Shown in pieces: positions 1 through 25,955 of a stretch of 64,000 bases of DNA. The position numbers and the translations under genes are program-made. Each line of letters starts with the position of its first letter. The first letter of the stretch is position 1. The stretch comes from Escherichia phage AV112. Under the pieces are notes generated by a model. The model was given only the letters and a program-made list of their open reading frames with translations. It was not told where the DNA came from and searched no databases. Where the stretch lies: the sequence record OR352942.1. One strand, 5' to 3'.

Positions 1-48
1 ATCTCGCGTTAATTGTTGCGATGGTTTTTGCAGGTCTTACTTAAATTA

Positions 49-450
49 TTATAGATTCGGTTTATATGATTTAAATGTTTCGAATTCGCCTTTATTCATA
101 AGAGCTTTGAATTCGTCAGGACGCATAGCTTTGTCGTCGATAATCCAATCATATACTGGTTTATGTGTTAGCAAATTATGGTACTTCAATCCAATGTTTG
201 CCAAGTTCTGAATCAGACTTGGGAGAATGTCAATTGCTATACGACCAGGACCGACTGACTTCATACCACGAGCAGTGTAAAGCGTTATGGTATGCCCTGC
301 ATCATACAGGGCATTAATGGCAGACACCATTTCGACGTCTGGTTTGAAGTTCACGTAATCACGATTGTTATTCCACTCTGTTATACAATCATCGACATCA
401 AAACAAAGATTAAGCATGTTTTTTACACGGGGCATTAGATTCGTTCCCAT
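49..450 (-). CDS. HAD-superfamily phosphatase (small KdsC-like sugar-phosphate phosphatase)
   Basis: Translation has the HAD motif I FDVDDCIT and a C-terminal IIDDK acidic motif; the likely true start is the internal Met of MLNLCFDVDD. It lies in an operon with the isomerase and the NTase/kinase. Confidence 0.6.
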   Translation of the reverse strand: MGTNLMPRVKNMLNLCFDVDDCITEWNNNRDYVNFKPDVEMVSAINALYDAGHTITLYTARGMKSVGPGRIAIDILPSLIQNLANIGLKYHNLLTHKPVYDWIIDDKAMRPDEFKALMNKGEFETFKSYKPNL

Positions 451-2120
451 TGATGAGTGATATCGCCACCGATTGGACGATAGGAAACACCAGTTTCTTT
501 ATCAGTTAGTACCCATTTACCAGGATTTTTTGTAATCAGAGTAGCCGTTACAGGTTCTGCTACGTCATAACTAATAGAGCCGTCCTGAAGTACACGGCCC
601 ATGTTACGTAATTGCTTAGTCAGAAGTTCCATACCTTTATAATATGCGGCTACCGCTTTAAGTGGATTATTCTTGAAATAACCACCTAATGCAATCCAGA
701 TAATTGCCACTGCCAAATGATGATACTCGTTAAACGAACTCATCTTTCCATATTTGTAAACTAATGGATTGATGTTAATAGTCACATTACAAGTTGTTTC
801 ATCAATAGTAAACTGTCCCCAGGTCGGATTAGCGTTGAATTCATCATACCCTGAAACAGCATAAAGCACTTTAGCTTCGTCATACAATTTTGGTCCGTAA
901 ATCTTGGTTTCGCCAAAATATCCACGAGGGTCGATAAACTTGACTTCGCCGTTATCAGTAATCATAGTATTACTGAAGTTCGGGTCACCATGAATAACAG
1001 AGTACTGTCCCTGAGAACGGTTATGATAACGAATAAGGTGTTCTAAAGCTTGTTTCAACATTGGCTTCAGACGCCCAATCTTAGTGTAGTTCACATGTGT
1101 GATTTTACCAAATGAATCAATCAGTGGTTGAATACTTTCACAACGATCAATAACTTTCGTATAGAATTCTTTAGTGAAATCACGACGAACAGTTTCAGGA
1201 CTTACAAAATAAGTGTCTGTGCTGAATTTCAGTGCGTCTAAAATTGCATCAACAATTTGTGGACGAGCAAGACTCGATTTGGATTTAATATATTCAAATG
1301 CTGGCTTACCTTTAATGCGTTCCATTTCAAAGTTATTTTCATTAACAGAAACTAACTGAGGAACTGAATCTGATTTCACTTTAAGATACCATGAAATCTC
1401 ATCTTTCTGAAGAGCTCGGCCCTGTTCGGTTAATGCGAATTTAGTTACAGTTTCTTCACCAATTTCAACGGCATTAAAACTACGATTAAGTTCACGAACT
1501 TCATGAGCTTTTTCAAGTTTAGGCATATCACCTAAATCAATTAGATTCATAAGCTCTGATTTATTGAATGCACTGCCGTAAAGGAATTCTACGAAATCAC
1601 GTCCTTTGCAGTATTCATGAATTTCCTCATCAGTAGAACCCATATAGAATTCCCAGTCTTTGAACTGATAAATTCCTACAACATTACCACCTGTTGAACC
1701 TACGTTAGTGATATTTTCACCGTCGAAATTATATCGACATTCGTCGCCCTTAACATAGATTGCGTTAACATTCCAAGACCACGAACCAAAATCAGGAATA
1801 ATATCACACCAGTTAACAATTACATTATGGCCGTCTAAATCTTTGTGCAATTTAGCAAGAGCATAAGCAGAACCATATGCTTCATCAACTGTACGAATAG
1901 TCACATTGAACCCTTCTTGCTCACAATAAGCTCGAACAGTTTCAGCAAATTTTGAATGAACTACTACAATAATTTCATCTGCGCCAAGGTCAGAATAAAT
2001 TGTATACAAATTGCTCAGAATAGTGTCTTGTTTATAGTTAACAAGCACCTTAGGAATATGATGCGTTATTGGATACAAACGAGTTGCCAGTCCAGCACCA
2101 AGAATAACAGCTTTTTTCAT
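435..2120 (-). CDS. Bifunctional sugar-1-phosphate nucleotidyltransferase (N-terminal) and APH-fold sugar kinase (C-terminal)
   Basis: N-terminus AVILGAGLATRLYPIT resembles the GxGTRL motif of RmlA/GlmU-type NTP transferases. The C-terminal half carries HGDPNFSN and FIDPRG, the catalytic loop and metal-binding motifs of the aminoglycoside/choline/anomeric-sugar kinase fold. Confidence 0.6.
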   Translation of the reverse strand: MKKAVILGAGLATRLYPITHHIPKVLVNYKQDTILSNLYTIYSDLGADEIIVVVHSKFAETVRAYCEQEGFNVTIRTVDEAYGSAYALAKLHKDLDGHNVIVNWCDIIPDFGSWSWNVNAIYVKGDECRYNFDGENITNVGSTGGNVVGIYQFKDWEFYMGSTDEEIHEYCKGRDFVEFLYGSAFNKSELMNLIDLGDMPKLEKAHEVRELNRSFNAVEIGEETVTKFALTEQGRALQKDEISWYLKVKSDSVPQLVSVNENNFEMERIKGKPAFEYIKSKSSLARPQIVDAILDALKFSTDTYFVSPETVRRDFTKEFYTKVIDRCESIQPLIDSFGKITHVNYTKIGRLKPMLKQALEHLIRYHNRSQGQYSVIHGDPNFSNTMITDNGEVKFIDPRGYFGETKIYGPKLYDEAKVLYAVSGYDEFNANPTWGQFTIDETTCNVTININPLVYKYGKMSSFNEYHHLAVAIIWIALGGYFKNNPLKAVAAYYKGMELLTKQLRNMGRVLQDGSISYDVAEPVTATLITKNPGKWVLTDKETGVSYRPIGGDITHQWERI

Positions 2121-2161
2121 GTTGTGGTCCTCATTGGTAAGTAGGAGTATTGTACACTATT

Positions 2162-2305
2162 CTAGTTAAAGCATTCATACTTTGCTTGTAGTCCAATCAT
2201 AATCCATCCGATTATAAGAGTCGGAATCATTACTGGAGCCGTTAAGCTCCAGTAGATAGTCATGACAAGCATCAATAGTAAAAGTCCTATTGTTATTGCT
2301 TTCAT
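2162..2305 (-). CDS. Small hydrophobic protein, 47 aa (below the ORF-track cut-off)
   Basis: Manual translation gives MKAITIGLLLLMLVMTIYWSLTAPVMIPTLIIGWIMIGLQAKYECFN. Its ATG overlaps the TGA of the isomerase gene (ATGA), with a GAGG box upstream. Confidence 0.3.
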   Translation of the reverse strand: MKAITIGLLLLMLVMTIYWSLTAPVMIPTLIIGWIMIGLQAKYECFN

Positions 2306-2937
2306 TGTTCGCCTCGTAACATGGCACCTAGTGCACCGCCAGGGTGGAACTTAAGGAAGTCATTAGAGGTAAATCCACGTTCAGACGAAAGGTTGATAGC
2401 AAACGTATCGATAAGCGCTAACAACAATGTAGTGGACATGGTCGGAGCCAGAGAATTCTCATCAACCTCTACTGCGATGCCTGTACAGAACGTATAATCA
2501 AAAAGAGCTTCGTATTCTTGTGGAATGTCCGGGTTACAATGCAACAGAATCTGTTTGACGTTCGGACGAATCATTTTAAGATGCTTAGCCACGCCTATCA
2601 TTTCTTCAGTTTTACCAGAACGACTAATATGAATCAACACATCATTAGGCGCAATGAATCCTGCATCACCGTGAGAATAATGTCCAGTGTTCAAGTACAT
2701 ACTCGGGATACCGAGTGAAGCAAATGTCTCAGAAGCTTTAGTTGCAATATTAGCATTCTTACCAACACCTGTAATAATTACTCGGCTTTCATAATTACTA
2801 AGTCCAGGACGTCGAAGAGTTTCTAGAATAGCATTATAACGAGCAGGGTTTTGACTAATTACTTTGGCCATAGCGGCCAAAGAAGAAGCTTGTTTTATGA
2901 TTGCGTCAATAGCGATAGTAATAGGAGTAGTTTTCAT
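2302..2937 (-). CDS. SIS-domain sugar-phosphate isomerase (arabinose-5-phosphate isomerase KdsD/GutQ-like)
   Basis: Contains the SIS signature HISRSGKTEE and the overall SIS-domain pattern; it sits directly downstream of gene 43, where T4 carries imm, 42 and beta-gt. Confidence 0.6.
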   Translation of the reverse strand: MKTTPITIAIDAIIKQASSLAAMAKVISQNPARYNAILETLRRPGLSNYESRVIITGVGKNANIATKASETFASLGIPSMYLNTGHYSHGDAGFIAPNDVLIHISRSGKTEEMIGVAKHLKMIRPNVKQILLHCNPDIPQEYEALFDYTFCTGIAVEVDENSLAPTMSTTLLLALIDTFAINLSSERGFTSNDFLKFHPGGALGAMLRGEQ

Positions 2938-2977
2938 ATTTCTCTCATTTAATTAGTTTGCCGTCCATGTCATTATA

Positions 2978-5689
2978 TCAAAAATCGAACATATCGAACA
3001 GAGATGCTTTCTTCTCGTAATCGAGTTTCGCTGCTGATGTGAATCCTTCAAGTGGTTTAATAAATGTCTTCTCAAGGAGAACAGTGTAGTCCATCCAATG
3101 AAGTACGTCGTCTTTAATTAAATCTGTGATTTCAGTACCAGAAGGCCATGCGATACATTTATCACCGAATGGGTTTCCTTCACGTAAAGGCAGAACATAT
3201 ACTTTTTCACCTTCTACAACTTGTGGTGCATCGATATTACCTTTGATAGCACGGTTATACGTCAGAATTCCACGAATATGGAATGGGCATTTAGGACCAG
3301 GGAATCCACCTACATCATATTTAGCAATGTTATTCGCAGAAGATACTGACGCGATGCTAATATAATTCAATTGACGGAATTCTTTTTCAAACTCTTTAAA
3401 ATATTCTTGTAATGATTCTTCGCCTTCCTGAAGCATACGACGAATACATTCTTTAAGAGCTTTCTGTACTGCTTTAGGAGTCGAAGATTTCTGAGTCTCT
3501 AGACCCATGATTTTGAGTTTAGGCTCAGCGTATCTGGTTCCTTCCATATCCCACACGTTTAATGCATAACGTTTCTTACCAGTCCAGAATCCACCAATAC
3601 CTTTAGAACCGAGTGGAGGCCCAGCGATAGCTTCTCGGTCCATGAACATTAAGTGTTGTTTATTGTTCATGTATTCACACATTTCACGGAAACCTCTATC
3701 AATAGCTGGTTCCATACGTTCACGTGCAAACTTATCTAAGAAGTCTACCCAATGGTTGGTATCACGGAATTTAGATTCACCAACCTTATCGATAATTTTA
3801 TCAGCAGATACGTAAATAGAGTCTGTATCACCATAAAGAACGAAAGCTTCACCTTCTGTGCCACAAACTTCATTCAGATATTCATTAACTTTACGTTCAA
3901 TCCACTGTAAAGCCATTTGCCCGAATGTTGTGATTGCAGTAGCATTACGCAAATCGTAATAACGGAACCAAACGTTGCCAAGTGCACCATAAAGTGAGTT
4001 GATAAGCAATTTACGGTTAATTTGGGCAGTCATACCTGCAACTTCAGTACGTTGAGCTCTAAACAACATTTCATTAAGAGATTTAGCAGACAACTTTTTA
4101 ATCTTTTCTTTAATCTCATCACTGAAGTCGAAACGATAATCAACATCTAATGGTTCGTCAACAGAAAGATTAGGATTATGCAATGCCTCTTTAATTATTT
4201 CACCATTACGTTGAGCTGCAAGCATGTAACCTTTATGTTCTTTACGTTGATTAAAGACCTTAGTGATTTCAGTTGGAACAACACCGTCACGGTCTTTATA
4301 ATACATCATGCCGTTAGGAGAACAACTGTACACATCAGAAGGACGTTCAGCAACAGCGTTAATATAATCATGTAATGGAGCTACTTTAAACGTTCCTGCT
4401 ATTGTTTCTGGGCTAATATTCACTTGGCGAATAATACTTGGATACAGAGATGTAAGGTCGAAACTCATTACATATTTGTATCGATTTGGAATAGGTTCCT
4501 TAACAAAAGCGCCGGGATAAGGTTGAACCGGATGAGAACGACCTTGTGGAATCACCTTGTTCTGCTCTTTAAGGCTATTAAAAATAATAGCATCCCATGT
4601 TTTAATTGGGCTAAACACAGATTGAATCTGTATCTTAGCATAATAACCCATGTCCAAACTCAAGTTGATGAACTGACGTTTAGCATCAATTTGCAATACA
4701 CGATACACGTCGATAATGTTATAAGAAATATATCGTTGGTGATTGCTTTCACGAAGCTTAGAAATAGGGCCGTCATATTTCAGTTTACCAACGTTCAATT
4801 CAAATTCTGAAATGTAATCCAGAGAATACGACGGTTGATTGGTAAAAGAGAATTTTTTGTAAAGGTCAATGTAATCAAGAACAGAGATACCGAACAATGT
4901 AATGATTTCACGAGAACCATACATGTTTTCGATAACTTTAACACGAGTTTTACGATGTGGTGATAAACGTTTCGCAGTAGATTCGCCAAAAATATTCTTG
5001 ATTCGGTTATACACATATGGAATATCAAATGACTCAACGTTCCATCCAGTCAAAATGACAGGAGTTTTCTGTTGCCAGAAGTTGAGATATTCCATCAACA
5101 ATTCTTTTTCGTTATCGAACGGCATATAAATGATTTTATCGATAATTTCGGATGGGACTTCATCACCGCCTTGTTCTTGAAGCTTAGCCGCAATTTCGAT
5201 AGACCATTCTTCCACATTCCCGTATGGAGAATTCAAAAGGTCAAATACGTAGAACCTGTCGTCAATTGAGTCATAATGAGTGATAGCATCAATCGGATGT
5301 TTTGCTTGTGACGGCTCAGGGAACCCGTCTGGAGATGTTACTTCGATGTCGAAGTTAGCCACACGAATTTTTGTATGGTCGTATTTGATTTCATAGTTAT
5401 AAGTGTCAGACAAATACGCCAATTTGAAATCGTCCATGCCAAGTGCTTCAAGTCCGATATCTTCCATGCGTTTAATCCATTGGGAGGCATCACGCATATT
5501 GGCGAACAACTTACGAGTACACGGCTTACCGTAGATATCGAAATATTTCGTAGCCTGACTTTCCGGACAATGAGCAAACAGTGATGGTTTATATTCTACT
5601 TCACGAGTACGTTCACGGCCGTTAGAATCGATGTAACGTTCAAAAATTGAATCACCAATCTGTTCAACCGTTAAGTAAAATTCTTTCAT
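2978..5689 (-). CDS. 43: DNA polymerase gp43 (family B)
   Basis: 903 aa, starting MKEFYLTVEQIGDSIFERYIDSNGRERTREVEYKPSLFAH; collinear with recalled T4/RB69 gp43, with exonuclease and polymerase motifs such as YGDTDS. Confidence 0.97.
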   Translation of the reverse strand: MKEFYLTVEQIGDSIFERYIDSNGRERTREVEYKPSLFAHCPESQATKYFDIYGKPCTRKLFANMRDASQWIKRMEDIGLEALGMDDFKLAYLSDTYNYEIKYDHTKIRVANFDIEVTSPDGFPEPSQAKHPIDAITHYDSIDDRFYVFDLLNSPYGNVEEWSIEIAAKLQEQGGDEVPSEIIDKIIYMPFDNEKELLMEYLNFWQQKTPVILTGWNVESFDIPYVYNRIKNIFGESTAKRLSPHRKTRVKVIENMYGSREIITLFGISVLDYIDLYKKFSFTNQPSYSLDYISEFELNVGKLKYDGPISKLRESNHQRYISYNIIDVYRVLQIDAKRQFINLSLDMGYYAKIQIQSVFSPIKTWDAIIFNSLKEQNKVIPQGRSHPVQPYPGAFVKEPIPNRYKYVMSFDLTSLYPSIIRQVNISPETIAGTFKVAPLHDYINAVAERPSDVYSCSPNGMMYYKDRDGVVPTEITKVFNQRKEHKGYMLAAQRNGEIIKEALHNPNLSVDEPLDVDYRFDFSDEIKEKIKKLSAKSLNEMLFRAQRTEVAGMTAQINRKLLINSLYGALGNVWFRYYDLRNATAITTFGQMALQWIERKVNEYLNEVCGTEGEAFVLYGDTDSIYVSADKIIDKVGESKFRDTNHWVDFLDKFARERMEPAIDRGFREMCEYMNNKQHLMFMDREAIAGPPLGSKGIGGFWTGKKRYALNVWDMEGTRYAEPKLKIMGLETQKSSTPKAVQKALKECIRRMLQEGEESLQEYFKEFEKEFRQLNYISIASVSSANNIAKYDVGGFPGPKCPFHIRGILTYNRAIKGNIDAPQVVEGEKVYVLPLREGNPFGDKCIAWPSGTEITDLIKDDVLHWMDYTVLLEKTFIKPLEGFTSAAKLDYEKKASLFDMFDF

Positions 5690-5770
5690 TTAATTTCCTT
5701 TAGACGAGTTATTGTCTTTTGTTTGTTGATGAACTTATTATACTCCAAATGGGACCGAAGTCCCATTGCT

Positions 5771-6139
5771 TTAATTACCAATTGTATATTTTGCTTTCAA
5801 AGTCCAGTCATCTTTCTGTTTAAAAGAGATAACACGGAAGTTATTAGTCAGACCAAACAGATCTTCACGAGCAGAGTCTTCAATAACAATCAATCCCCAG
5901 TCTTCAAGCAACTGAGCAATCGAATCACGTCGCTGATAGTCTTCACCATCAATATCAACCTGACGTCCATCCATACGCAGCATTTCTTTAAAGTGGACGA
6001 TATAGTATTTACCTTGCTTTTGGAGGATATGACAAGACTGGTAAAGGACTTTATCCTTGTTATTAGCGATGCCCATACGGGTCAAAGTCTCTTTGACTTT
6101 CAGAAAATCTTCAGGGTTCTTCAATTTAATTTCAATCAT
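5771..6139 (-). CDS. regA: Translational repressor RegA
   Basis: 122 aa; near-identical over long stretches to recalled T4 RegA (KETLTRMGIANNKDKVLYQSCHIL...NNFRVISFKQK). Confidence 0.92.
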   Translation of the reverse strand: MIEIKLKNPEDFLKVKETLTRMGIANNKDKVLYQSCHILQKQGKYYIVHFKEMLRMDGRQVDIDGEDYQRRDSIAQLLEDWGLIVIEDSAREDLFGLTNNFRVISFKQKDDWTLKAKYTIGN

Positions 6140-6142
6140 TTT

Positions 6143-6706
6143 TTACCATTCCAATGCTATTTTTTTAAATTGTTTTTGTTCTTTCACATTTTTTGTAACT
6201 TCTTTGAGAAACTCATCAGTGACCATGGCCTTCAGTTCTTTAAGGACTATTGGCAACTTGTTATTTTTTTCAAGGAGCCGCTTATACTCAGTAGCATCAT
6301 TCATGTTTATTGTGTAATGTTTCATCAACAGTTTGATAACTAGTAACTCTGAAGTGTCTTCGACTAGTTTAGCCCATTTAGAGAATCGACGACCACGCGG
6401 AATTGCCGCCATCATATAGTTGAAGTGCGCTTCATCACTTAATTCAGAACCGACTAAGTTCATCATGTAAACAGCTGGCATACATTCTGGGAACTGGGAT
6501 AATGAGTTCTCAACCATAAATTTTGAGTAGTCGACCTGAGCAATTGACATAGATTTCTTTTCATTAATAGCATTAATGATTTTAAAGAATTCGTTCTCAG
6601 GTTTTTCTTTAAACATATCAGCACATTTTTGAATCGCATCAGCGTCATTAGACTTCCATGCAATTTGGTGCTCGTTAAGCCGGACGTCATCATCGAATAA
6701 GTTCAT
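6143..6706 (-). CDS. 62: Clamp-loader small subunit gp62
   Basis: 187 aa, the same length and position as T4 gp62, between regA and 44. Confidence 0.88.
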
Positions 6707-9146: not shown

Positions 9147-10835
9147 TTATGAAACAGTCATTACCGTAAATCGTCCAACTTTGCTCATTTGAAGATGTTG
9201 TCCATAACGTTGAGGGTCATGGTCTCGATGAGAGATAATGAACACATTAGTATTTTGTAAACTTCCAAGAATGGTATCTATAGCCTTAACAGCCTCAGAA
9301 TCGACAGCACCATCAAAAACCTCATCAAGAATCAGAGTGTTGATTTTAACACCAGAGACCTTTTCAGCAATATCTCGCCATGTAAACAACAATGCGATAT
9401 CGATACGTGCCTTTTCACCTTGACTAAATGAAGCATAACTAAAATCTTCACGACCACGTGATTTTATAGATTCATTGAATTCTTCGTCAATAGAAAACAC
9501 GTAATCAGCTTCCATGATTTTAAGATAATAGTTAATCTGCTTGTTGAACAGAGGCACATATTTTTTAATGATAGCACCTTTAATACCAGAATCTTTTAAC
9601 ATATCTGTGATAATACCACGATGGTATTTTTCAAGAACGATATCAGATTTTGTTTTAATGATTTTATCAAGTTCTTTTTGAAGCAAAGCTATCTCATCAG
9701 CATGGTCGATAAATTCCGCCGAGGCTTGTTCTATTGCAGCTTTAACTTTCTTAGCTTTATCAATAGTGGCAATCATTGCTTGTTTCTTGGTACGAATATC
9801 AGATGCAAGGTCCTGTTTAGTCTTAACATTAGCTCTATATTCGTCCACTAGGACACTCAGATTATCTCTGTGGCATGTAAGTTGCTCGAATGAGTGATTA
9901 CATTCGTGAAGCTTATCGGTAATCTTAGAGACAATAGGATCACCCTGGTGCAACTGCGATGCACAAGTAGGACATGTACCACCATCATGATACATCTTAA
10001 TAACTTTGTTATATGAGTCGATTTTAGATTTAATCAAGAATGCTTCTTGTCCGATCTTGTTGAATGCCTCAGTAGGGTCTTCGTCAAGAACGATATTAAG
10101 TAGACGCTCATTAGCTTCTTCAATTTCTGCTTTTAATGAACGAGCTTCTTTGGCTAGGTCGTCATACATATTCTGTAGACGCGCTACATTATCACCAGAT
10201 AATTTCTTTTGTCGTTCGATATTCTCGTTATAAATCTTAATTTGTTGGATAACACCATCTTTCTTGGCATCGAGAACTTGTCCCTGGGAATTAAGTTCTC
10301 GAACTTGAGACTTATTGATTTTATCCATTTCAGCGAGTGTGCCGACTTCTAAAAGGTCTTCGACAAGTTTTCTGCGAGCAGGGGTGCTAAGAGCCATGAA
10401 AGGGGTATACCCTGCCGTCCCAAGCACAACGATTTGTTTAAAAGACGCGTATGACATTCCGATGCTGCGTTCAAATTCTTCTTGGAAGTCACGACTGCTG
10501 GCAGATTCATCAAGACGAACACCGTCAACGGAGATTTCGAAAATATTGGGCTTTTGGCCACGTTTAATGAAGTATTTTTTACCATCGAATTCCATCCAAA
10601 GCTCAACTAAGAGCTCTTTCTTGTTCGTGCTATTAATGATTTGCCCTTTCTTAACATCACGAAATGGTTTACCGAAAAGTCCGAAAGTAATGGCTTCTAA
10701 CATCGTAGATTTGCCACCACCATTTTTACCAGTGATTAATGTCTTTTGGACTTTATCTAATTGGATATCGATAAAATTTTGCCCAACAGACATTATATTT
10801 TTATAACGAACACGATTTAATTTAAATGTTTTCAC
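9147..10835 (-). CDS. 46: Recombination endonuclease subunit gp46 (SbcC/Rad50-like ATPase)
   Basis: 562 aa; N-terminal Walker A GKNGGGKST, a long central coiled coil and a C-terminal ABC signature region; position matches T4 gene 46. Confidence 0.92.
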   Translation of the reverse strand: MKTFKLNRVRYKNIMSVGQNFIDIQLDKVQKTLITGKNGGGKSTMLEAITFGLFGKPFRDVKKGQIINSTNKKELLVELWMEFDGKKYFIKRGQKPNIFEISVDGVRLDESASSRDFQEEFERSIGMSYASFKQIVVLGTAGYTPFMALSTPARRKLVEDLLEVGTLAEMDKINKSQVRELNSQGQVLDAKKDGVIQQIKIYNENIERQKKLSGDNVARLQNMYDDLAKEARSLKAEIEEANERLLNIVLDEDPTEAFNKIGQEAFLIKSKIDSYNKVIKMYHDGGTCPTCASQLHQGDPIVSKITDKLHECNHSFEQLTCHRDNLSVLVDEYRANVKTKQDLASDIRTKKQAMIATIDKAKKVKAAIEQASAEFIDHADEIALLQKELDKIIKTKSDIVLEKYHRGIITDMLKDSGIKGAIIKKYVPLFNKQINYYLKIMEADYVFSIDEEFNESIKSRGREDFSYASFSQGEKARIDIALLFTWRDIAEKVSGVKINTLILDEVFDGAVDSEAVKAIDTILGSLQNTNVFIISHRDHDPQRYGQHLQMSKVGRFTVMTVS

Positions 10836-11697
10836 TTAAATTTTTCCTCATGAATTCAGAAACTAAAGCCTGTAAAGAACTTTGTATAGGATATCCTAAA
10901 TTGACTAAATTTTTAGAAAAAGTCACATATTTAGGTTTGTTCATTTTAACCCATTCATCGTAAAGCATATCAAAATTTTCCCAATGATATCCTTTTCTTC
11001 TAGATTTCAAATGAGTGTCTCTAACTTTAGGATTTTTCCAACTGCGTGAAACTCCAGCCGATAATGATTCTCTATATTCGGCTGTTTTAGATATTTTACG
11101 ACAAGCATCCAAATGTTTTTGTTTATTAATAGGGTCACTAAACCACTTTTGGGTCATAATAGAGACGGTTTCTTTAAATTCCTTTGAACTTGTCATAATT
11201 CTGTGTTTCTTTAAATTTTCCGGATTTTTAAACCATGCTTTTAAAGCTTGACTAATCTTAATTCTATTATCCTGATTGGAATAGTATAATGTCATTTTTA
11301 TAGAATTAACTTTACAAACATTTTCGAATTCTAAAGAATACGCCTCGGCTATATTATTTAGTTCATGCGTTGTACAATTTAAATTAAATCGCCCGGTATA
11401 CATTCTTTGAAGCGCGTTAATCATCTTGTGGTTGCCAGTTTTTGCCAAAATGCTATGTGCAATAAAATGGTTATAATGACTTAAATGACACAAGTTCCAT
11501 TTACATGTTTTAAAATCTGGAAAAATAGATTTTGGTAGTATATGGTGAACCTGAGTCAGTCCTTTTACTTTATTAGTTGAATTAGTTTTTATAAAGTTTA
11601 AATACTCATCAAGTCCTTCCCACGAAGGGAAGGAGGTTTTAAGAATTTTATAAATTTGAGTTTCATAATCAGTCTTCGTCATTATACGCGTCCTCAA
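10822..11697 (-). CDS. HNH homing endonuclease (free-standing, Mob-like) with NUMOD-type DNA-binding repeats
   Basis: HNH core QVHHILPKS...CKWNLCHLSHYNHFIAH, followed by repeated WFKNPE / WFSDP / WKNPK helix motifs. It is inserted between 46 and 47 and overlaps the gp46 start by 14 nt. Confidence 0.8.
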   Translation of the reverse strand: MRTRIMTKTDYETQIYKILKTSFPSWEGLDEYLNFIKTNSTNKVKGLTQVHHILPKSIFPDFKTCKWNLCHLSHYNHFIAHSILAKTGNHKMINALQRMYTGRFNLNCTTHELNNIAEAYSLEFENVCKVNSIKMTLYYSNQDNRIKISQALKAWFKNPENLKKHRIMTSSKEFKETVSIMTQKWFSDPINKQKHLDACRKISKTAEYRESLSAGVSRSWKNPKVRDTHLKSRRKGYHWENFDMLYDEWVKMNKPKYVTFSKNLVNLGYPIQSSLQALVSEFMRKNLSENI

Positions 11698-11926
11698 TAC
11701 ACGCTTCAGCCATTTTAAGAATAGAGCCAGGAGTATCGTTGTCCATTATATTAAAGCTAAATTCAACAGCCCAGTCGGTGCAGACATGAACTGCTTTAAC
11801 TTCATTACCTTCAACGCGTAATGGCTCAATCCAATACTTGATAGTGTTCTCGAATCCATCATCATCTTTAACGTCCATTTCAACTTCAAGCCTGAGTCCA
11901 GCATTGTTAAATTCATCTAAAGTCAT
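11669..11926 (-). CDS. Hypothetical acidic protein
   Basis: 85 aa ORF between gene 47 and the HNH gene. Confidence 0.45.
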   Translation of the reverse strand: MTLDEFNNAGLRLEVEMDVKDDDGFENTIKYWIEPLRVEGNEVKAVHVCTDWAVEFSFNIMDNDTPGSILKMAEACIEDAYNDED

Positions 11927-12942
11927 TGTGTTGCCTCAATATAAAGTTCGTTGGAATATTTGACCAGCGCTTCTCTGTCTTCGTCTGAGATATCTGGAAT
12001 CGCGTCAATATATTCTTTAATGATATCTTGAAGAGATTTAATCTCGATTTCCTGGTCGTCATCAGATTCAACACTGTTATCAACTTTAGAAACCATACGA
12101 AGAGAGTGAACTACTTTTTCAAGTTCAGATTCAAACTTAGTCAACTCTGAATCAATTTCTGATACTATAACACGTACGGCTAGATTAGTATAATCAGAAT
12201 AATTGATTTTGCCTTTAAACGGATAAGTGATTCGTCGATGCCATGTTGTTTCGTTAGGAATAAATTCCATACGTTCAACATCAGTGTCAAATACCCAAAA
12301 TCCGCGCGGGTCGTTCTCATCACCTGCAGTAAGGGTCCATGGTGTCCCAATATATTTGACGTTAGCAGCTTCAGAGATTGTGTGGAAGTGGCCGGACCAG
12401 ACTTGTTTATAGGTCTTTAAGAAATCAGGTTCAAGCCCATGAGACTTCATTCCTTTATAGAAATAAAAACCATTCAGTTCCCAGTGCCCAACACAATACG
12501 CTGCGGAAGAAGTCTTGATGTGCTCTAAGATTTCACCTGTATTTTCTTCGCACATCCATGGAACGATATCAATCAGACATCCGTCAAAATCTACAGTAGT
12601 TGGATGCTCGTAAATAGTAAAGTTTTCAAATTGAGTTAACAATTCAGAAACAGTGTTAGGTGTTATTGTATTCTTAAACGCCATGTCATGGTTTCCTATC
12701 GTGACATGAACGTGAATGCCTGCTTTAGAAATCATATCAACGATTTCACGATTGAATTCCATTGTACGATGTGTTATTGCTTTACGGACGTCAAACCAAT
12801 CACCGTACTGAATCCAAGTTTTAATCCCATGTTTCTTAGAGTATTCAATTGCTTGACGAATACCATCACGTTGAATATCTTGAACCCATGGGTCGTCTTG
12901 TTTGACTCCGATATGGAAGTCGCCTAAGTGCAAAATTTTCAT
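11923..12942 (-). CDS. 47: Recombination endonuclease subunit gp47 (SbcD/Mre11-like)
   Basis: 339 aa; MKILHLGDFH...GNHD phosphoesterase motifs; collinear with recalled T4 gp47. Confidence 0.94.
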   Translation of the reverse strand: MKILHLGDFHIGVKQDDPWVQDIQRDGIRQAIEYSKKHGIKTWIQYGDWFDVRKAITHRTMEFNREIVDMISKAGIHVHVTIGNHDMAFKNTITPNTVSELLTQFENFTIYEHPTTVDFDGCLIDIVPWMCEENTGEILEHIKTSSAAYCVGHWELNGFYFYKGMKSHGLEPDFLKTYKQVWSGHFHTISEAANVKYIGTPWTLTAGDENDPRGFWVFDTDVERMEFIPNETTWHRRITYPFKGKINYSDYTNLAVRVIVSEIDSELTKFESELEKVVHSLRMVSKVDNSVESDDDQEIEIKSLQDIIKEYIDAIPDISDEDREALVKYSNELYIEATQ

Positions 12943-12986
12943 ATTATTTCCTCATTAGTTAATTCATTCTATCATCCGCTTATAAA

Positions 12987-13013
12987 GCAAAAAAAGGAAC
13001 TCCGAAGAGTTCC
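12987..13013 (-). terminator. Rho-independent terminator (minus strand)
   Basis: Plus strand reads aaaaaaa-GGAACTC-cgaa-GAGTTCC: a 7-bp stem with a 4-nt loop, followed by a U-run on the minus-strand transcript. Confidence 0.6.
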
Positions 13014-13186
13014 TATCCACATAGTACACCATACAGAGGCTCATTTGAACTTTTAAATCGAATGGGCTTGTATGTAATAGTTCCTTCGGCTTTAGCTTTA
13101 TCATAAGACTCTTTAAAACGCCTCATTCTTTCTGCTTTGCCTTTACGGATTTTATCGAAATTTTCAGAGGTCAGGTCGTTCGTCAT
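13013..13186 (-). CDS. Small basic protein, 57 aa (below the ORF-track cut-off)
   Basis: Manual translation gives MTNDLTSENFDKIRKGKAERMRRFKESYDKAKAEGTITYKPIRFKSSNEPLYGVLCG; GAGGTG sits 7 nt upstream of the ATG, and the terminator follows directly. Confidence 0.35.
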   Translation of the reverse strand: MTNDLTSENFDKIRKGKAERMRRFKESYDKAKAEGTITYKPIRFKSSNEPLYGVLCG

Positions 13187-13406
13187 GCATAATCACCTCT
13201 CAGAAAATACCTAAATCGATTTCTCTCATCGTTTCCACCATTTCTTAACTTGAAATGAGTCAACCCACACGAGTTGTTTTGGGTCGGCCCTTACAACAGG
13301 TGGACAAATTTCTGTAATAGAACTGTCGTGATATTCCTTTTCAGAGATTTTAACACAAAGAGGACCTCCCAATTTAAGGGTGAACCCTGCGTTCAGCTTA
13401 AGACGT

Positions 13407-13730
13407 TTAAACTTTGTTTGAACTAGCGCCATTAATGATGTCCTCAATAGCCTGACGAGTAGTAACCCACTGGATTTTAATTAACTTGTCATTATATGGT
13501 TGTCGTAGAATATCCCGAGATTTCTTAATAGCATATTCGTAAGCTTCGAAGTTGTTTTGAATTGCTGCTTCTTGAGCATGAGCATAAAGACGGTTTAGTT
13601 CAAAACGATTCTTTTTAAGAATCTTTTCGGATTTTTTACGTGCTTCAGCTTCATTTTTCTTTTGGATTTCTTGTAGCATTTTAGCTACTGCATCTTCTGC
13701 TTCTTTATTTTCAATAATCTCGGTAGTCAT
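13407..13730 (-). CDS. Hypothetical protein
   Basis: 107 aa ORF in the interval where T4 carries alpha-gt and 47.1; no glycosyltransferase-sized ORF is present here. Confidence 0.5.
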   Translation of the reverse strand: MTTEIIENKEAEDAVAKMLQEIQKKNEAEARKKSEKILKKNRFELNRLYAHAQEAAIQNNFEAYEYAIKKSRDILRQPYNDKLIKIQWVTTRQAIEDIINGASSNKV

Positions 13731-13731
13731 A

Positions 13732-14025
13732 TTATCTCATTAAATTAAAATAAAAACGTCCATCCTCTTCAATACGGAACTCATACTCAACCGGAGTCCC
13801 ATTTATCGAAAATGACACGTCATGTGGGTTCAAAGGGTCGATGTCAAAATTAATTTTAAATTCACGACCCAACAGTTTTACCAAATAAGGGATTGCTTCG
13901 TCAAAAGGTTCTTCTAAGTAGTTAGAGATGTCAATTGTCATCCTCATATAAAAAATCCAAACTAGGCGAATCGCTAACAACTTCCTTCTTTTCAGCCCCA
14001 GGAGCTTTATAAGCGGATTCTTCAT
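13732..14025 (-). CDS. Hypothetical protein (start uncertain)
   Basis: 97 aa ORF whose 5' part overlaps the 3' end of gene 55; internal Met codons at 13945-13947 and 13939-13941 are alternative starts. Confidence 0.4.
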
Positions 14026-14488
14026 AATGCGTCATTTTATCGTAGATGTCTTGAATAAACGTTTCATCTACCAACGCTACCATATCATCGTCATGACTGT
14101 CGTAGACGTTATGAACGAAGTAACTATATTTCTTTGCAACTTCCTTACGTTCTTTTTTGATACGTTGGACAAAAGCATTAAAACAAGCTCGAGTTATGTA
14201 TGCATGTGGGTTATTGTACTTAGTTTCGTCGAAATTATGAAGTCCCTTAATAGAGGCTTCAATCCCATCTGCAATCATCTCCTGCTTCCAAGACTGGGTA
14301 TATCCTGAAAAGTTGAAACGTTTGGACAGGCCTTCGGCGATAAGCATAATTGCTAAACCGATGGTATCATTCTGACGAATAATTTTGTTTGGGTCTTTAT
14401 TATTTAAGAGCTCCTTTTTCCACTCGATTATAGCGGCGAGAAGCTCTTTATTATTCACATAGTTATTTTTAGGTTTTTGTTCAGTCAT
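13931..14488 (-). CDS. 55: Late-transcription sigma factor gp55
   Basis: 185 aa; near-identical to recalled T4 gp55 over NYVNNKELL...[25 protein letters not shown]. Confidence 0.94.
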
Positions 14489-19547: not shown

Positions 19548-20359
19548 AATTCTAATTTATCCTTTTGAAATTCTTCGTCTAAATATGGGTTCCAACCCAT
19601 TTTAAACCTTTTGATGAAATTATCAATTCTAAATTTCGGTAAGTTTAAATCCGCAAAAATAGATGATTTACTTTTAAAATCTGGACCTAAATAATCATAT
19701 AAAATTTCTGCGTATTTTAACCATAATATACAAGTACCAGATTTAATTGCGTTCGGAGTTTTCCAAGGTTTTACACCATACATCGGATTTCCACTTCCTT
19801 TATGCCTGATAGAAGATGAAATTCCAATTTTAATTTTAGCTTCCTTTGTATGCGAAAATCCACGATGCGGATTTTCTTTCCAGTATTTTTTAGAAGCTTC
19901 TGATATTTTCTTTCTGGCTAAATTAGTATGATGCTTTCCATAAAATCCATGATTTTTGCCTTTATTACGATTTCTTTTAATCATGGTTATTGATTGCTTT
20001 TCTCTAGTTTCTTTAGAAGGAGAAATACCATATGTCGTAAATTTGCCATCAGCATATGCTAAATTAAAATACTCTTTATTCCATACATCTTTTTCTATAT
20101 TCTTTTGAAATTCAGCTTCAATGCTAGTTATTTGTTCATCTCCGACTAATTGAAAATATAATATTTCAACTTTCGGCGTTTCTTTCAATAAGGCTTTTTG
20201 AAATTCGGAAGATGACGAAGACGAATAATAAAATTTACCATTTTTATCAATAATATTCGTTCCATCAAAAGTGCAATTGGTTTTACTTCCAATGTAATAA
20301 TATGGTGGGGTTTTAGCATTAATTCTATTAATAAATGATAGTTTATATACTACATTCAT
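19538..20359 (-). CDS. GIY-YIG homing endonuclease (free-standing, Seg-like) with NUMOD3 repeats
   Basis: N-terminal VVYKLSFINRINAKTPPYYYIGSKTN (GIY-YIG core); C-terminal repeated KNHGFYGKHHT / ENPHRGFSHTKEAK / GSGNPMYGVKPW helices. It sits between 49 and nrdD and overlaps both. Confidence 0.75.
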   Translation of the reverse strand: MNVVYKLSFINRINAKTPPYYYIGSKTNCTFDGTNIIDKNGKFYYSSSSSSEFQKALLKETPKVEILYFQLVGDEQITSIEAEFQKNIEKDVWNKEYFNLAYADGKFTTYGISPSKETREKQSITMIKRNRNKGKNHGFYGKHHTNLARKKISEASKKYWKENPHRGFSHTKEAKIKIGISSSIRHKGSGNPMYGVKPWKTPNAIKSGTCILWLKYAEILYDYLGPDFKSKSSIFADLNLPKFRIDNFIKRFKMGWNPYLDEEFQKDKLELCL

Positions 20360-21590: not shown

Positions 21591-21926
21591 TTAACCCCGG
21601 AGTTTATTGAGCTCTTCATAATCAATCCAGGATTCTAGCCCTGACGGCAGGTCACATTCAATGTTCCACAGAAGCTCTTCGATGGCTTGTAGGCGATTAT
21701 ATTCTTCAACAGTAATAGTAACCATTGTTTCAGGCTTTTTAACCATCATGTCATTCATCAGAATGTACAGGTCTTCACAAACAGCCGGGTCGTCCCATGT
21801 CCATATTTCAGCATCTCGAACTAATGAAGTCGGAATCGAATTTAAAACTTCAAGCTTAGTAGGAGCGTCAGGGCCGAGAAGAGTTGCTACAAATTTATAC
21901 GCTCTGGCGAAATCAATATCATTCAT
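21591..21926 (-). CDS. Hypothetical protein
   Basis: 111 aa ORF. Confidence 0.45.
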   Translation of the reverse strand: MNDIDFARAYKFVATLLGPDAPTKLEVLNSIPTSLVRDAEIWTWDDPAVCEDLYILMNDMMVKKPETMVTITVEEYNRLQAIEELLWNIECDLPSGLESWIDYEELNKLRG

Positions 21927-23847: not shown

Positions 23848-23875
23848 AATATTTTCCTCTCGTTAAGATAGAAAG

Positions 23876-23905
23876 ATTATACTCCAACCGTCCTTGGTTG
23901 TAAAC
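23876..23905 (-). promoter_or_regulatory. Sigma70-type early promoter
   Basis: Minus strand reads GTTTAC, an 18-nt spacer, then TATAAT. Confidence 0.5.
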
Positions 23906-23909
23906 TGAT

Positions 23910-24842: not shown

Positions 24843-24897
24843 TTTATATTCCTCATGTTGAAAAATTTATTATACTCCAACCATCCTTGGTTGTACA

Positions 24898-25953: not shown

Positions 25954-25955
25954 GT

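What the first reader, a model, noticed from the sequence alone, without database searches (positions are those of the whole stretch)
49..2937. Phage-encoded sugar-nucleotide pathway in place of the glucosyltransferase loci: likely non-glucose hmC-DNA glycosylation
Directly downstream of gene 43 sit a SIS-domain sugar-phosphate isomerase (HISRSGKTEE), a fused sugar-1-phosphate nucleotidyltransferase (GAGLATRLYPIT) plus APH-fold sugar kinase (HGDPNFSN, FIDPRG), and a HAD phosphatase (FDVDDCIT). At the same time no alpha-glucosyltransferase-sized ORF exists between 47 and 55 (12943..13930), where T4 carries alpha-gt. Isomerase, phosphatase, anomeric kinase and nucleotidyltransferase together would make an activated pentose from a host pentose phosphate. 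T-even phages normally glucosylate hmC from host UDP-glucose; RB69 has been reported to arabinosylate hmC instead. The transferase itself is not in this window and may lie just upstream of position 1.
Basis: partly seen in the sequence, partly recalled or inferred. Interest (0 to 1): 0.8.

Follow-up and report, generated by a model that had tools for sequence, protein, structure and literature searches.

The report
Phage UDP-arabinose pathway for DNA arabinosylation
These genes of an RB69-like coliphage are the already published pathway that turns a host pentose phosphate into UDP-arabinose, which the phage uses to put arabinose on its modified cytosines, so the finding is real but a rediscovery.

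Summary
The window is 100% identical to Escherichia phage AV113, a Mosigvirus related to RB69. Directly downstream of gene 43, on the minus strand, four tightly packed genes occupy 49..2937:
- a CBS-less SIS arabinose-5-phosphate isomerase;
- a conserved 47-aa membrane ORF;
- a 561-aa fusion of a sugar-1-phosphate nucleotidyltransferase with an APH/choline-kinase-fold kinase;
- a small HAD phosphatase.

They are 97.7-99.7% identical to RB69 gp55, ORF054c, gp52:53 and gp51. The phosphatase matches PDB 9iqw at 126 of 128 residues. No alpha-gt-sized ORF lies between genes 47 and 55.

This module was flagged in 2018 as the likely UDP-arabinose source in RB69. Papers from 2025-2026 describe it as the route ribulose-5-P -> arabinose-5-P -> arabinose-1,5-bisP -> arabinose-1-P -> UDP-arabinofuranose.

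- The acceptor base is 5-hydroxycytosine, not hmC.
- The kinase acts before the phosphatase.
- The first transferase lies 2.2-3.1 kb before position 1, beyond a U32-family gene and the 5-hydroxy-dCMP synthase gene.

Verdict: already known, low interest. One side lead is the unexplained RlhA-like U32 gene next to the window, which may be an oxygen-independent cytosine hydroxylase.

The parts
2302..2937 (-). Single-domain (CBS-less) SIS arabinose-5-phosphate isomerase, 211 aa; homologue of RB69 gp55 (ORF055c). Proposed step: D-ribulose-5-P <-> D-arabinose-5-P.
   Evidence: Pfam SIS 1.7e-10; NCBIfam KpsF/GutQ 2.2e-32, KdsD 1.2e-30, GutQ 1.7e-22, all below the equivalog cut-offs because the CBS half is missing. 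PDB sequence hits: 3etn 5.5e-25, 5uqi, and 2xhz (E. coli KdsD SIS domain) 6.5e-19. Equivalents of KdsD K59/H88/E111/E152 and the HPGGALG histidine are kept as K60, H89, E112, E157 and H198. 99.1% identical to RB69 ORF055c. phrog_5670 'arabinose 5-phosphate isomerase' 2e-116.
2162..2305 (-). Conserved 47-aa hydrophobic ORF (about two predicted membrane helices); homologue of RB69 ORF054c. Its start overlaps the isomerase stop as ATGA. Role unknown.
   Evidence: ORF. ATGA overlap and a GAGGA ribosome-binding site ahead of the next gene. phrog_3610 covers 47/47 positions, E=4.5e-27. An ORF of the same size, annotated 'transmembrane segment(s)', sits at the same place in Serratia phage LC53.
435..2120 (-). 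Bifunctional 561-aa protein; homologue of RB69 gp52:53 and analogue of HY126 AfhE. The N-terminal ~205 residues (about 1506..2120) are a sugar-1-phosphate nucleotidyltransferase, proposed to convert Araf-1-P + UTP to UDP-Araf. The C-terminal ~355 residues (about 438..1505) are an APH/choline-kinase-fold kinase, proposed to convert arabinose-5-P to arabinose-1,5-bisphosphate.
   Evidence: Pfam NTP_transferase 8.5e-10. AF2 whole-protein model pLDDT 93.6; Foldseek hits RmlA, MurU, HddC, LicC and GMPPB at E~1e-8. AF2 C-terminal model pLDDT 93.4; top hits 3ham APH(2'')-IIa at 1.4e-7, then ethanolamine/choline kinases and macrolide phosphotransferases. Invariant in 41 homologues: G10, R14, K24 (NTase signature); D379, N384 (HGDxxxxN); D397 (IDPRG). 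99.5-99.7% identical to RB69 ORF053c plus ORF052c, which are split there by a sequencing error. The 54%-identical Thanatos homologue TH1_060 is essential for phage growth.
49..435 (-). HAD-superfamily phosphatase, 128 aa from the ATG at 435 (an in-frame ATG at 450 would give 133 aa); homologue of RB69 gp51 and analogue of HY126 AfhF. Proposed step: arabinose-1,5-bisphosphate -> arabinose-1-phosphate.
   Evidence: TIGR01689 4.2e-13. 126/128 identical to PDB 9iqw and related to 1xpj at 5e-10. 97.7% identical to RB69 ORF051c. TAATG stop/start overlap with the upstream gene. The function of the HY126 homologue as a Mg2+-dependent phosphatase is reported in PMC13326640.
12943..13930 (-). Interval between genes 47 and 55 that lacks an alpha-glucosyltransferase gene. 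It holds only three small ORFs: 13013..13186, 13407..13730 and 13732..13941.
   Evidence: ORF list and AV113 annotation. T4 carries 47.1, a-gt (1203 nt), mobB and a-gt.2-5 in this interval.
1..48 (.). Intergenic spacer between the phosphatase stop and the start of the U32-family gene. That gene's ATG lies 7 nt before window position 1, so the module continues off the window edge.
   Evidence: AV113 annotation: U32-family CDS at record 94833..95993; window position 1 corresponds to record 96000.

Best explanation
Window 49..2937 is the sugar-activation half of the arabinosyl-5-hydroxycytosine DNA-modification module of RB69-type (Mosigvirus) phages. The proposed steps are:

1. The SIS protein diverts host D-ribulose-5-phosphate to D-arabinose-5-phosphate. 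This is inferred from homology and conserved KdsD catalytic residues.
2. The C-terminal APH-fold kinase domain of the 561-aa protein phosphorylates C1 to give arabinofuranose-1,5-bisphosphate.
3. The small HAD phosphatase removes the 5-phosphate.
4. The N-terminal nucleotidyltransferase domain condenses arabinofuranose-1-phosphate with UTP to give UDP-D-arabinofuranose.

Steps 2-4 are reported as biochemically shown for the HY126 proteins AfhE and AfhF. I know this only from the summary in Lee et al. 2026. They are inferred here from near-identity.

UDP-Araf is then used by two glycosyltransferases encoded outside the window. These are the homologue of RB69 gp46:47, 2.2-3.1 kb before position 1, and the homologue of RB69 gp3 near rIIA. 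They put one or two arabinoses on 5-hydroxycytosine. That base is made as 5-hydroxy-dCMP by the thymidylate-synthase homologue that replaces T4 gene 42. The modified DNA resists restriction enzymes. The four genes are packed with overlapping stop/start codons (ATGA, TAATG) downstream of gene 43, consistent with co-expression.
For: - Identity: the window is 100% identical to phage AV113, a Mosigvirus. The proteins are 97.7-99.7% identical to RB69 gp51, gp52:53, ORF054c and gp55.
- Family and fold. Catalytic motifs are invariant across 41 homologues down to 30% identity.
- Solved structures: the phosphatase is 126/128 identical to 9iqw. The adjacent TS homologue is 235/238 identical to 9iqc/9ir2/9iqu.
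- Literature: Thomas 2018 proposed this module between gene 43 and uvsX as the UDP-arabinose source, and showed that ORF053c plus ORF052c is one 561-aa gene. Lee 2026 gives the pathway, the HY126 AfhE/AfhF activities, 5hoC as the base, and UDP-Araf as the donor that works in vitro. PMC13390438 finds 5-ara-dC and 5-ara-ara-dC in another Mosigvirus.
- Gene order: isomerase, fusion protein, phosphatase, (U32), TS homologue, GT and kinase are kept in Serratia LC53 and Acinetobacter Apostate.
- Rosetta-stone fusions: single chains with HAD-SIS-NTase-kinase architecture exist.
- Genetics: the Thanatos homologue is essential for phage growth.
- No glucosyltransferase: there is no alpha-gt ORF, and no match to either arabinosyltransferase anywhere in the window.
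Against: - Nothing was measured for AV113 itself. Its DNA chemistry is inferred from near-identical relatives.
- I could not read the primary biochemical papers (He 2026, Mahler 2025). The step order and the UDP specificity rest on their summary in Lee 2026.
- Lee's own Table 1 still labels the phosphatase as 'dephosphorylates Araf5P to Ara' and the kinase as 'phosphorylates Ara to Araf1P'. The paper's text gives the other order.
- That 9iqw and 9iqc are the HY126 proteins is inferred from entry names, adjacent entry codes and Lee's text. It was not verified.
- The isomerase activity of the phage SIS protein is not reported as assayed. Single-domain SIS proteins can have other specificities.
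- The Thanatos study detected no pyrophosphorylase activity for TH1_060 with xylose-1-P.
Confidence: 0.9

Rival explanations
1. Same enzymes and same product, but in the order the first reader proposed: isomerase, then phosphatase giving free D-arabinose, then anomeric kinase giving Araf-1-P, then nucleotidyltransferase.
For: Table 1 of Lee 2026 labels RB69 gp51 'dephosphorylates Araf5p to Ara' and the C-terminal domain 'phosphorylates Ara to Araf1p'. Many salvage-type anomeric sugar kinases of the APH fold act on free sugars; this point is from my own knowledge.
Against: The text of the same paper says HY126 AfhE is an arabinose-5-phosphate kinase making Araf-1,5-P2, and that AfhF dephosphorylates the bisphosphate. 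The closest AFDB fold match cited there for the phosphatase is a heptose-1,7-bisphosphate 7-phosphatase.
Confidence: 0.07
2. The pathway makes an activated sugar for a target other than phage DNA, for example host LPS/Kdo or capsule remodelling, or glycosylation of virion proteins. That would make it an auxiliary metabolic module unrelated to DNA modification.
For: The closest cellular families are capsule/LPS enzymes: KpsF/KdsD, and the TIGR01689 'capsule biosynthesis phosphatase'. In cyanophage S-SRM01 the same three genes sit among glycosyltransferases and NDP-sugar epimerases, with no T4-type DNA-modification genes in view. The giant-virus-like contig also shows no DNA-modification context.
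Against: In Straboviridae the genes are always adjacent to the 5-hydroxy-dCMP synthase, a nucleotide kinase and the DNA arabinosyltransferase. RB69-type virion DNA contains arabinose on every cytosine. E. coli is not known to make NDP-arabinose.
Confidence: 0.02
3. T4-type modification: the phage glucosylates hydroxymethylcytosine using host UDP-glucose, and these genes are irrelevant to DNA.
For: The phage is a T-even relative with a gene-42-like thymidylate-synthase homologue.
Against: There is no alpha-gt or beta-gt homologue. The TS homologue is 98.7% identical to PDB 9iqc, which I take (inferred) to be the flavin-dependent 5-hydroxylase that Lee 2026 attributes to He et al. In an ungapped register it carries the D169N/N177D-type substitutions. 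Mosigvirus DNA was measured to carry arabinose, not glucose.
Confidence: 0.01

Closest known systems
RB69 gp51 / gp52:53 / gp55 (ORF051c, ORF053c+052c, ORF055c): the UDP-arabinose genes of the Mosigvirus arabinosyl-5-hydroxycytosine module (Thomas et al. 2018; Lee et al. 2026)
   Same: Same genes, same order and same position between gene 43 and uvsX. Protein identity is 97.7-99.7%.
   Different: In this phage the 561-aa gene is intact. In the RB69 GenBank record it is split by a one-base sequencing error. Nothing else of substance differs.
AfhE / AfhF of E. coli phage HY126 (He et al. 2026, as summarised in PMC13326640)
   Same: Same bifunctional kinase plus UDP-sugar pyrophosphorylase, and same Mg2+-dependent HAD phosphatase. 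The window phosphatase is 126/128 identical to PDB 9iqw, and the neighbouring hydroxylase is 235/238 identical to 9iqc.
   Different: That 9iqw and 9iqc are the HY126 proteins is inferred, not verified. No AfhE-like structure was found in the PDB by sequence. No activity has been measured for this phage.
Bacterial arabinose-5-phosphate isomerases KdsD / GutQ / KpsF, and the single-domain form from Bacteroides fragilis (PDB 3etn)
   Same: SIS fold. The five KdsD catalytic positions are conserved, including the HPGGALG histidine.
   Different: It lacks the C-terminal tandem CBS domains of KdsD/GutQ (211 aa against about 325 aa) and scores below the equivalog cut-offs. Its product feeds a nucleotide sugar rather than Kdo.
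T4 alpha- and beta-glucosyltransferase system acting on hydroxymethylcytosine
   Same: Complete replacement of cytosine, post-replicative glycosylation, and a restriction-evasion role. The first transferase sits at the beta-gt position next to the TS-family gene.
   Different: The sugar donor is phage-made UDP-arabinofuranose, not host UDP-glucose. The acceptor is 5-hydroxycytosine, not hmC. The transferases are unrelated in sequence, and there is no alpha-gt locus.
MurU/AmgK and LicC/LicA-type pairs of an APH-fold kinase with a small nucleotidyltransferase
   Same: The same two folds work in tandem to activate a small molecule. MurU and LicC are among the top fold matches for the N-terminal domain, and choline kinase LicA is among those for the C-terminal domain.
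   Different: Here the two are fused in one chain with the nucleotidyltransferase first. The kinase substrate is already a sugar 5-phosphate, so an extra phosphatase is needed.

Membership tests
Phage arabinosyl-5-hydroxycytosine (Afh-type) DNA modification module | Bifunctional arabinose-5-P kinase / UDP-arabinose pyrophosphorylase (AfhE-like; nucleotidyltransferase N-terminal, APH-fold kinase C-terminal) | tested here: met
   561-aa ORF at 435..2120. Both folds were confirmed on AF2 models with pLDDT ~93. Catalytic motifs are invariant. 99.6% identical to RB69 gp52:53.
Phage arabinosyl-5-hydroxycytosine (Afh-type) DNA modification module | Small HAD phosphatase (AfhF-like) | tested here: met
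   49..435. 126/128 identical to PDB 9iqw. TIGR01689 4e-13.
Phage arabinosyl-5-hydroxycytosine (Afh-type) DNA modification module | Arabinose-5-phosphate isomerase encoded next to the fusion gene | tested here: met
   2302..2937. KdsD/KpsF family hits and conserved catalytic residues.
Phage arabinosyl-5-hydroxycytosine (Afh-type) DNA modification module | Thymidylate-synthase homologue that makes 5-hydroxy-dCMP (flavin-dependent; D169N signature) | tested here: met
   Outside the window (L001 9838..10554). 235/238 identical to PDB 9iqc/9ir2/9iqu and 99.2% identical to RB69 gp48. RB69 gp48 is marked as experimentally confirmed in Lee 2026. The motif HMRSQNCAVVMQLD reads as R166/S167 kept, D169->N and N177->D in an ungapped register. 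BLAST placed a 2-residue gap differently, so the residue mapping itself is not secure.
Phage arabinosyl-5-hydroxycytosine (Afh-type) DNA modification module | DNA arabinosyltransferase(s) of GT-B type | tested here: inconclusive
   A 299-aa ORF (L001 8939..9838) is 99% identical to RB69 ORF047c plus ORF046c, the proposed first transferase. It has no Pfam or PDB sequence hit, and I could not model it. The GT fold is taken from Lee 2026 Table 1. Neither transferase is inside the window.
Phage arabinosyl-5-hydroxycytosine (Afh-type) DNA modification module | Virion DNA carries mono- or di-arabinosyl-5-hydroxy-dC in place of dC | not testable with these tools
   Measured for RB69 and Mosigvirus NP, not for AV113.
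KdsD/GutQ arabinose-5-phosphate isomerase (NCBIfam equivalogs NF008141, NF008581) | SIS domain followed by two CBS domains; score above the equivalog cut-off | tested here: not met
   Only the SIS half is present, at 211 aa. Scores are 107 and 80 bits against cut-offs of 505 and 481. It works like a KdsD SIS domain but is not a full member. It resembles the single-domain form 3etn.
Sugar-1-phosphate nucleotidyltransferase (Pfam PF00483) | GxGxRLxPxTxxxPK signature and Rossmann-like NTase fold; score above the gathering threshold | tested here: met
   39.1 bits against a 21.2 cut-off. G10, R14 and K24 are invariant. Foldseek aligns about 225-255 columns to RmlA, MurU and LicC.
APH / choline-kinase phosphotransferases (Pfam PF01636) | Bilobal kinase fold with the HxDxxxxN catalytic loop and a downstream metal-binding Asp | tested here: met
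   By sequence this protein gives only sub-threshold hits, but homologues reach PF01636. The fold match has probability 1.00 (top hit 3ham). H377, D379, N384 and D397 are conserved.
T4-type glucosyl-hmC system | Alpha-gt and/or beta-gt glucosyltransferase genes | tested here: not met
   No alpha-gt-sized ORF between genes 47 and 55. No annotated or Pfam-detectable glycosyltransferase among the large unassigned ORFs of the window.

The most novel reading that the evidence does not exclude
The 386-aa peptidase-U32-family gene that starts 7 nt before window position 1 (homologue of RB69 ORF050c) has no tested function in the papers I could read. It may be an oxygen-independent, Fe-S and prephenate-dependent cytosine C5 hydroxylase of the RlhA/TrhP/UbiU-UbiV type. 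If so, the module would carry an anaerobic route to 5-hydroxycytosine alongside the O2- and flavin-dependent thymidylate-synthase homologue. The sugar pathway in the window could then be used in the anoxic gut.

Supporting points:
- Among the four E. coli U32 paralogues, the best profile match is RlhA, the 23S rRNA 5-hydroxycytidine synthase.
- A chorismate mutase gene, whose product makes prephenate, follows the U32 gene in Serratia phage LC53. One is also annotated at the U32 match in Klebsiella phage KLB31.
- The gene is present in phages of Enterobacterales and Shewanella. It is absent from the Acinetobacter phage cluster I inspected, and no Acinetobacter phage appears in the listing.
- Homologues at 50-58% identity sit in nucleotide-metabolism neighbourhoods of other large phage contigs.

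He 2026 and Mahler 2025 could not be read and may already address this.
Probability: 0.3. Interest if true: 0.65.

Novelty: already known. Interest (0 to 1): 0.15.

Why it matters
The system is biologically important. It lets a T-even-like phage make a sugar nucleotide that its host lacks and coat every cytosine with arabinose, which changes how restriction enzymes, CRISPR nucleases and type IV systems see its DNA.

For this window it adds no new knowledge. The genes are near-identical to RB69 and HY126 genes that have been described, and for HY126 reportedly characterised biochemically. One of the three enzymes matches a solved structure that I take to be the HY126 protein.

The practical value is better annotation of AV113, where three of the four genes are labelled 'hypothetical protein'. 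The report also corrects the common 'ara-hmC' label to arabinosyl-5-hydroxycytosine. The adjacent U32-family gene is the one piece of the module that remains unexplained and testable.

Tried and rejected
- Sigma-70 promoter and terminator scan of 1..6200: 20 promoter-like sites against 20.9 expected, so it says nothing about the transcription unit.
- PDB sequence search with the 561-aa protein: it found only nucleotidyltransferases, and no AfhE-like entry.
- Foldseek with the whole 561-aa model: the top 50 hits were all nucleotidyltransferases. I therefore remodelled the C-terminal 357 residues alone to test the kinase fold.
- BLASTP of the TS homologue against E. coli ThyA (sequence from memory): the gap placement is ambiguous around the D169 position. 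I rely on the 98.7% identity to 9iqc instead.
- Search for a glycosyltransferase inside the window: tblastn with both arabinosyltransferases gave only chance hits (E >= 0.1). Pfam on ten large unassigned ORFs gave DUF7235, RlaP, AAA/HTH, DUF7275/7277 and NUMOD3, and no GT.
- Is the small ORF after the U32 gene in RB69/AV113 a chorismate mutase, as in LC53? There is no similarity and no Pfam or NCBIfam hit, so only some lineages carry one.
- U32-family profile against PDB sequences: nothing meaningful. A single-sequence search also found nothing.
- He et al. 2026 and Mahler et al. 2025 could not be retrieved.
- Rfam scan of the whole window: only the ten tRNAs.

Full report
**Origin of the window.** Bases 1-6000 are 100% identical to Escherichia phage AV113 (OR352943.1, record 96000-101999). 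AV113 is a Mosigvirus (Straboviridae, Tevenvirinae) from Danish wastewater. A further 151 phage records are 95-99% identical over this stretch. The 903-aa ORF at 2978..5689 is annotated as the DNA polymerase, gene 43.

**Check of the observation.** On the minus strand downstream of gene 43 lie four genes:

| Coordinates | Length | Assignment |
|---|---|---|
| 2302..2937 | 211 aa | SIS isomerase |
| 435..2120 | 561 aa | nucleotidyltransferase + kinase fusion |
| 49..435 | 128 aa | HAD phosphatase |

- The ORF lister extends the last gene to an in-frame ATG at 450.
- The junctions are tight. The isomerase stop overlaps the 47-aa ORF's start as ATGA. The fusion gene's stop overlaps the phosphatase start as TAATG. 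A GAGGA ribosome-binding site precedes the fusion gene. Together these suggest a co-translated block.
- Between gene 47 (11923..12942) and gene 55 (13931..14488) there are only ORFs of 57, 107 and 69-97 aa. T4 carries 47.1, alpha-gt, mobB and a-gt.2-5 in that interval.

**Isomerase.**
- Pfam SIS scores E=1.7e-10. NCBIfam gives KpsF/GutQ 2.2e-32 and KdsD 1.2e-30. All are below the equivalog cut-offs, because the protein has only the SIS half and no CBS pair.
- The best solved relatives are 3etn (Bacteroides fragilis, single domain; 5.5e-25), 5uqi, and the E. coli KdsD SIS domain 2xhz (6.5e-19).
- Counting along the printed alignment to 2xhz, the KdsD positions K59, H88, E111 and E152 correspond to K60, H89, E112 and E157 here. 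The C-terminal HPGGALG histidine (H198) is also kept. That these are the KdsD catalytic residues is from my own knowledge of the KdsD literature, not a tool result.

**Fusion protein.**
- By sequence, only the first ~100 residues reach a curated threshold (NTP_transferase 8.5e-10). Kinase families appear only at E~1e-3.
- A database search gave 312 homologues. Several of them have precomputed APH (PF01636) hits.
- In an alignment of 41 homologues down to 30% identity, the following are invariant: G10, R14 and K24 (the GxGxR...K nucleotidyltransferase signature); D379 and N384 (the HGDxxxxN catalytic loop, where H377 is nearly invariant); and D397 (IDPRG).
- The AlphaFold2 model of the whole protein has mean pLDDT 93.6. 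Its Foldseek matches are RmlA, MurU, HddC, LicC and GMPPB.
- Those hits hid the second domain, so I modelled residues 205-561 alone (pLDDT 93.4). The top match is APH(2'')-IIa 3ham (E=1.4e-7, probability 1.00). Ethanolamine/choline kinases and macrolide phosphotransferases follow.

**Phosphatase.** It hits TIGR01689, 'capsule biosynthesis phosphatase' (4e-13). It is 126/128 identical to PDB 9iqw and related to 1xpj.

**What is already known.**
- The four products are 99.1%, 97.2%, 99.5-99.7% and 97.7% identical to RB69 ORF055c, 054c, 053c+052c and 051c (RB69 layout).
- Thomas et al. 2018 (PMC6024577) found arabinose in RB69 DNA. They showed that ORF053c and ORF052c are one 561-residue gene split by a sequencing error. 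They proposed ORF055c and ORF53_52c, within an eight-gene module between gene 43 and uvsX, as candidates for making UDP-arabinose.
- Lee et al. 2026 (PMC13326640) assign RB69 gp55, gp52:53 and gp51 to the route Ru5P -> Araf5P -> Araf-1,5-P2 -> Araf1P -> UDP-Araf. They cite He et al. 2026 for biochemical proof with the HY126 proteins. AfhE is described as a dual A5P kinase / UDP-arabinose pyrophosphorylase, and AfhF as a Mg2+-dependent phosphatase.
- Lee et al. also show that the base is 5-hydroxycytosine joined to arabinose by an ether link. The base is made as 5-hydroxy-dCMP by the thymidylate-synthase homologue gp48, using O2 and a flavin. UDP-Araf serves as donor in vitro.
- An independent paper on another Mosigvirus measured 5-ara-dC and 5-ara-ara-dC. 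It calls the earlier ara-hmC assignment erroneous.
- The 54%-identical homologue in Shewanella phage Thanatos is essential for phage growth.

**Surroundings outside the window.** Before position 1, AV113 encodes, in order:

| Gene | Length | RB69 counterpart / note |
|---|---|---|
| Peptidase_U32 protein | 386 aa | ORF050c |
| small ORF | 49 aa | ORF049c position |
| thymidylate-synthase homologue | 238 aa | gp48 |
| proposed first arabinosyltransferase | 299 aa | 99% identical to ORF047c+046c |
| thymidylate-kinase-like protein | 182 aa | ORF045c |
| uvsX | | |

- The TS homologue is 235/238 identical to PDB 9iqc/9ir2/9iqu.
- The second transferase (RB69 ORF003c) lies near rIIA.
- Neither transferase has a match inside the window.
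- In T4 the same interval reads uvsX, segA, beta-gt, 42, imm, imm.1, 43. The sugar genes therefore take the imm slot, and the first transferase takes the beta-gt slot.

**Independent support for one pathway.**
- The order isomerase, fusion gene, phosphatase is kept in Serratia phage LC53, Acinetobacter phage Apostate and even a cyanophage.
- More distant homologues (31-35% identity) are single chains of about 890-955 aa with the architecture HAD-SIS-NTP_transferase-kinase. This is a Rosetta-stone fusion of all four activities.

**Verdict on the interpretation.** The core is right: a phage-made activated pentose, arabinose as in RB69, no alpha-gt, and the transferase off the left edge of the window. 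Three details are wrong or outdated:
- The acceptor is 5-hydroxycytosine, not hmC.
- The kinase acts on A5P before the phosphatase. Table 1 of Lee et al. still carries the other labelling.
- The transferase is 2.2-3.1 kb away, not adjacent.

**Limits.**
- Nothing was measured for AV113 itself.
- The primary biochemical papers could not be read.
- That 9iqw and 9iqc are the HY126 proteins is inferred.

**Side lead: the U32-family gene.**
- Lee et al. label RB69 gp50 'sugar or heterocycle reductase' without a test. Their text does not mention U32, prephenate or RlhA.
- The known U32-family enzymes RlhA and TrhP hydroxylate C5 of cytidine or uridine in RNA, without O2, using prephenate. RlhA contains an Fe-S cluster. 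Their membership of the U32 family is from my own knowledge.
- A profile of the phage family matches E. coli RlhA best: hhalign probability 83.7%, E=8e-6, 204 columns. The other paralogues score worse: TrhP 0.005, UbiU 0.011, UbiV 0.1.
- The family has ten invariant cysteines.
- In Serratia phage LC53 a chorismate mutase (PF01817, 1.7e-11) directly follows the U32 gene. One is also annotated at the U32 match in Klebsiella phage KLB31.
- The gene occurs in 221 phage records, all at 80% identity or more. This holds even where the fusion protein is only 43% identical. The ten commonest host groups listed are all Enterobacterales, and a Shewanella phage appears among the rows shown.
- No Acinetobacter phage appears in the U32 listing, although 57 hold the fusion gene. 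The Apostate cluster has no U32 gene, and none is listed for DLP3.
- E. coli Dhakavirus AnYang also lacks it. It is therefore not essential for the modification.
- Homologues at 50-58% identity sit next to dCMP deaminase, thymidylate kinase, DnaE, UDG and SSB on large phage-like contigs. Others sit next to NT5C, a deoxynucleoside kinase and a nucleoside deoxyribosyltransferase.
- No held paper combines U32, TrhP or RlhA with phage DNA modification.
- This remains a hypothesis, and it concerns a gene outside the window.

**Scores.** The finding is real and correctly read in outline, but it is already known. Interest is 0.15.

Noticed in passing
L001 10834..11994 (minus); AV113 record 94833..95993; the gene's start is 7 nt before window position 1: The 386-aa Peptidase_U32 protein of the module (RB69 ORF050c) has no tested function. 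Among E. coli's four U32 paralogues it best matches RlhA, the prephenate/Fe-S 5-hydroxycytidine synthase (hhalign 83.7%, E=8e-6). It has ten invariant cysteines. Its 50-58% identical homologues sit in nucleotide-metabolism neighbourhoods on other large phage contigs. It may be an O2-independent cytosine hydroxylase.
   Followed up: partly
L004 9847..10191 (Serratia phage LC53); also annotated at hit H101, Klebsiella phage vB_KM5a1-KLB31: In LC53 a chorismate mutase gene (PF01817, 1.7e-11) directly follows the U32 gene inside the DNA-modification module. In KLB31 a chorismate mutase is annotated at the U32 match. RB69 and AV113 instead have an unrelated 49-79 aa ORF at that position. Chorismate mutase makes prephenate, the hydroxyl donor of RlhA and TrhP.
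   Followed up: partly
phage collection: The U32 protein is at least 80% identical in all 221 phage records that hold it. This includes Klebsiella phages whose nucleotidyltransferase/kinase is only 43% identical to the window's. That points to very strong constraint or recent exchange of this one gene.
   Followed up: no
window 2162..2305 (minus): A 47-aa ORF with about two hydrophobic helices is wedged between the isomerase and the fusion gene. Its start overlaps the isomerase stop (ATGA). It is conserved as phrog_3610 and is present at the same place in Serratia phage LC53. No role is proposed in the papers I read.
   Followed up: partly
L006 8001..10781 (GCA_013558355.1, 103-kb contig); proteins P0084, P0088, P0089, P0091, P0092: Single-chain fusions of about 890-955 aa with HAD-SIS-NTP_transferase-kinase architecture are 31-35% identical to the window's fusion protein. 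One sits between MutS+HNH, RNA polymerase Rpb2 and Rpb10 genes, which is a giant-virus-like context. Another is in the Ceratiomyxa fruticulosa transcriptome. A one-protein version of the pathway may exist in giant viruses or protists.
   Followed up: partly
L005 4411..6823 (Synechococcus phage S-SRM01): A cyanophage keeps the order SIS, NTase/kinase, small phosphatase. Here the genes sit among several glycosyltransferases and NDP-sugar epimerases, with no T4-type DNA-modification genes in view. The pathway may serve a different glycan target there.
   Followed up: no
window 47684..48511 (minus): A cluster of ten tRNA genes: Arg, Asn, Tyr, Met, Thr, Ser, Pro, Gly, Leu, Gln. The Mosigvirus NP is listed with only two tRNAs. 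This tRNA-rich cluster may therefore be unusual for the genus.
   Followed up: no
window 10822..11682 (minus): A 286-aa ORF with no Pfam hit lies between genes 46 and 47 and overlaps both. T4 has only the small 46.1 and 46.2 ORFs at that place.
   Followed up: no
window 19538..20359 (minus): A 273-aa NUMOD3-motif homing endonuclease gene is inserted between nrdD and gene 49, overlapping both neighbours.
   Followed up: no
window 21923..29644 (AV113 record 117922..125643): The GenBank record labels a run of ten unrelated ORFs 'thioredoxin', apparently an annotation carry-over. Pfam instead gives DUF7235, an AAA/HTH protein, an RlaP-type nucleotidyltransferase, or nothing. Three of the four genes of the finding are labelled 'hypothetical protein'.
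   Followed up: partly
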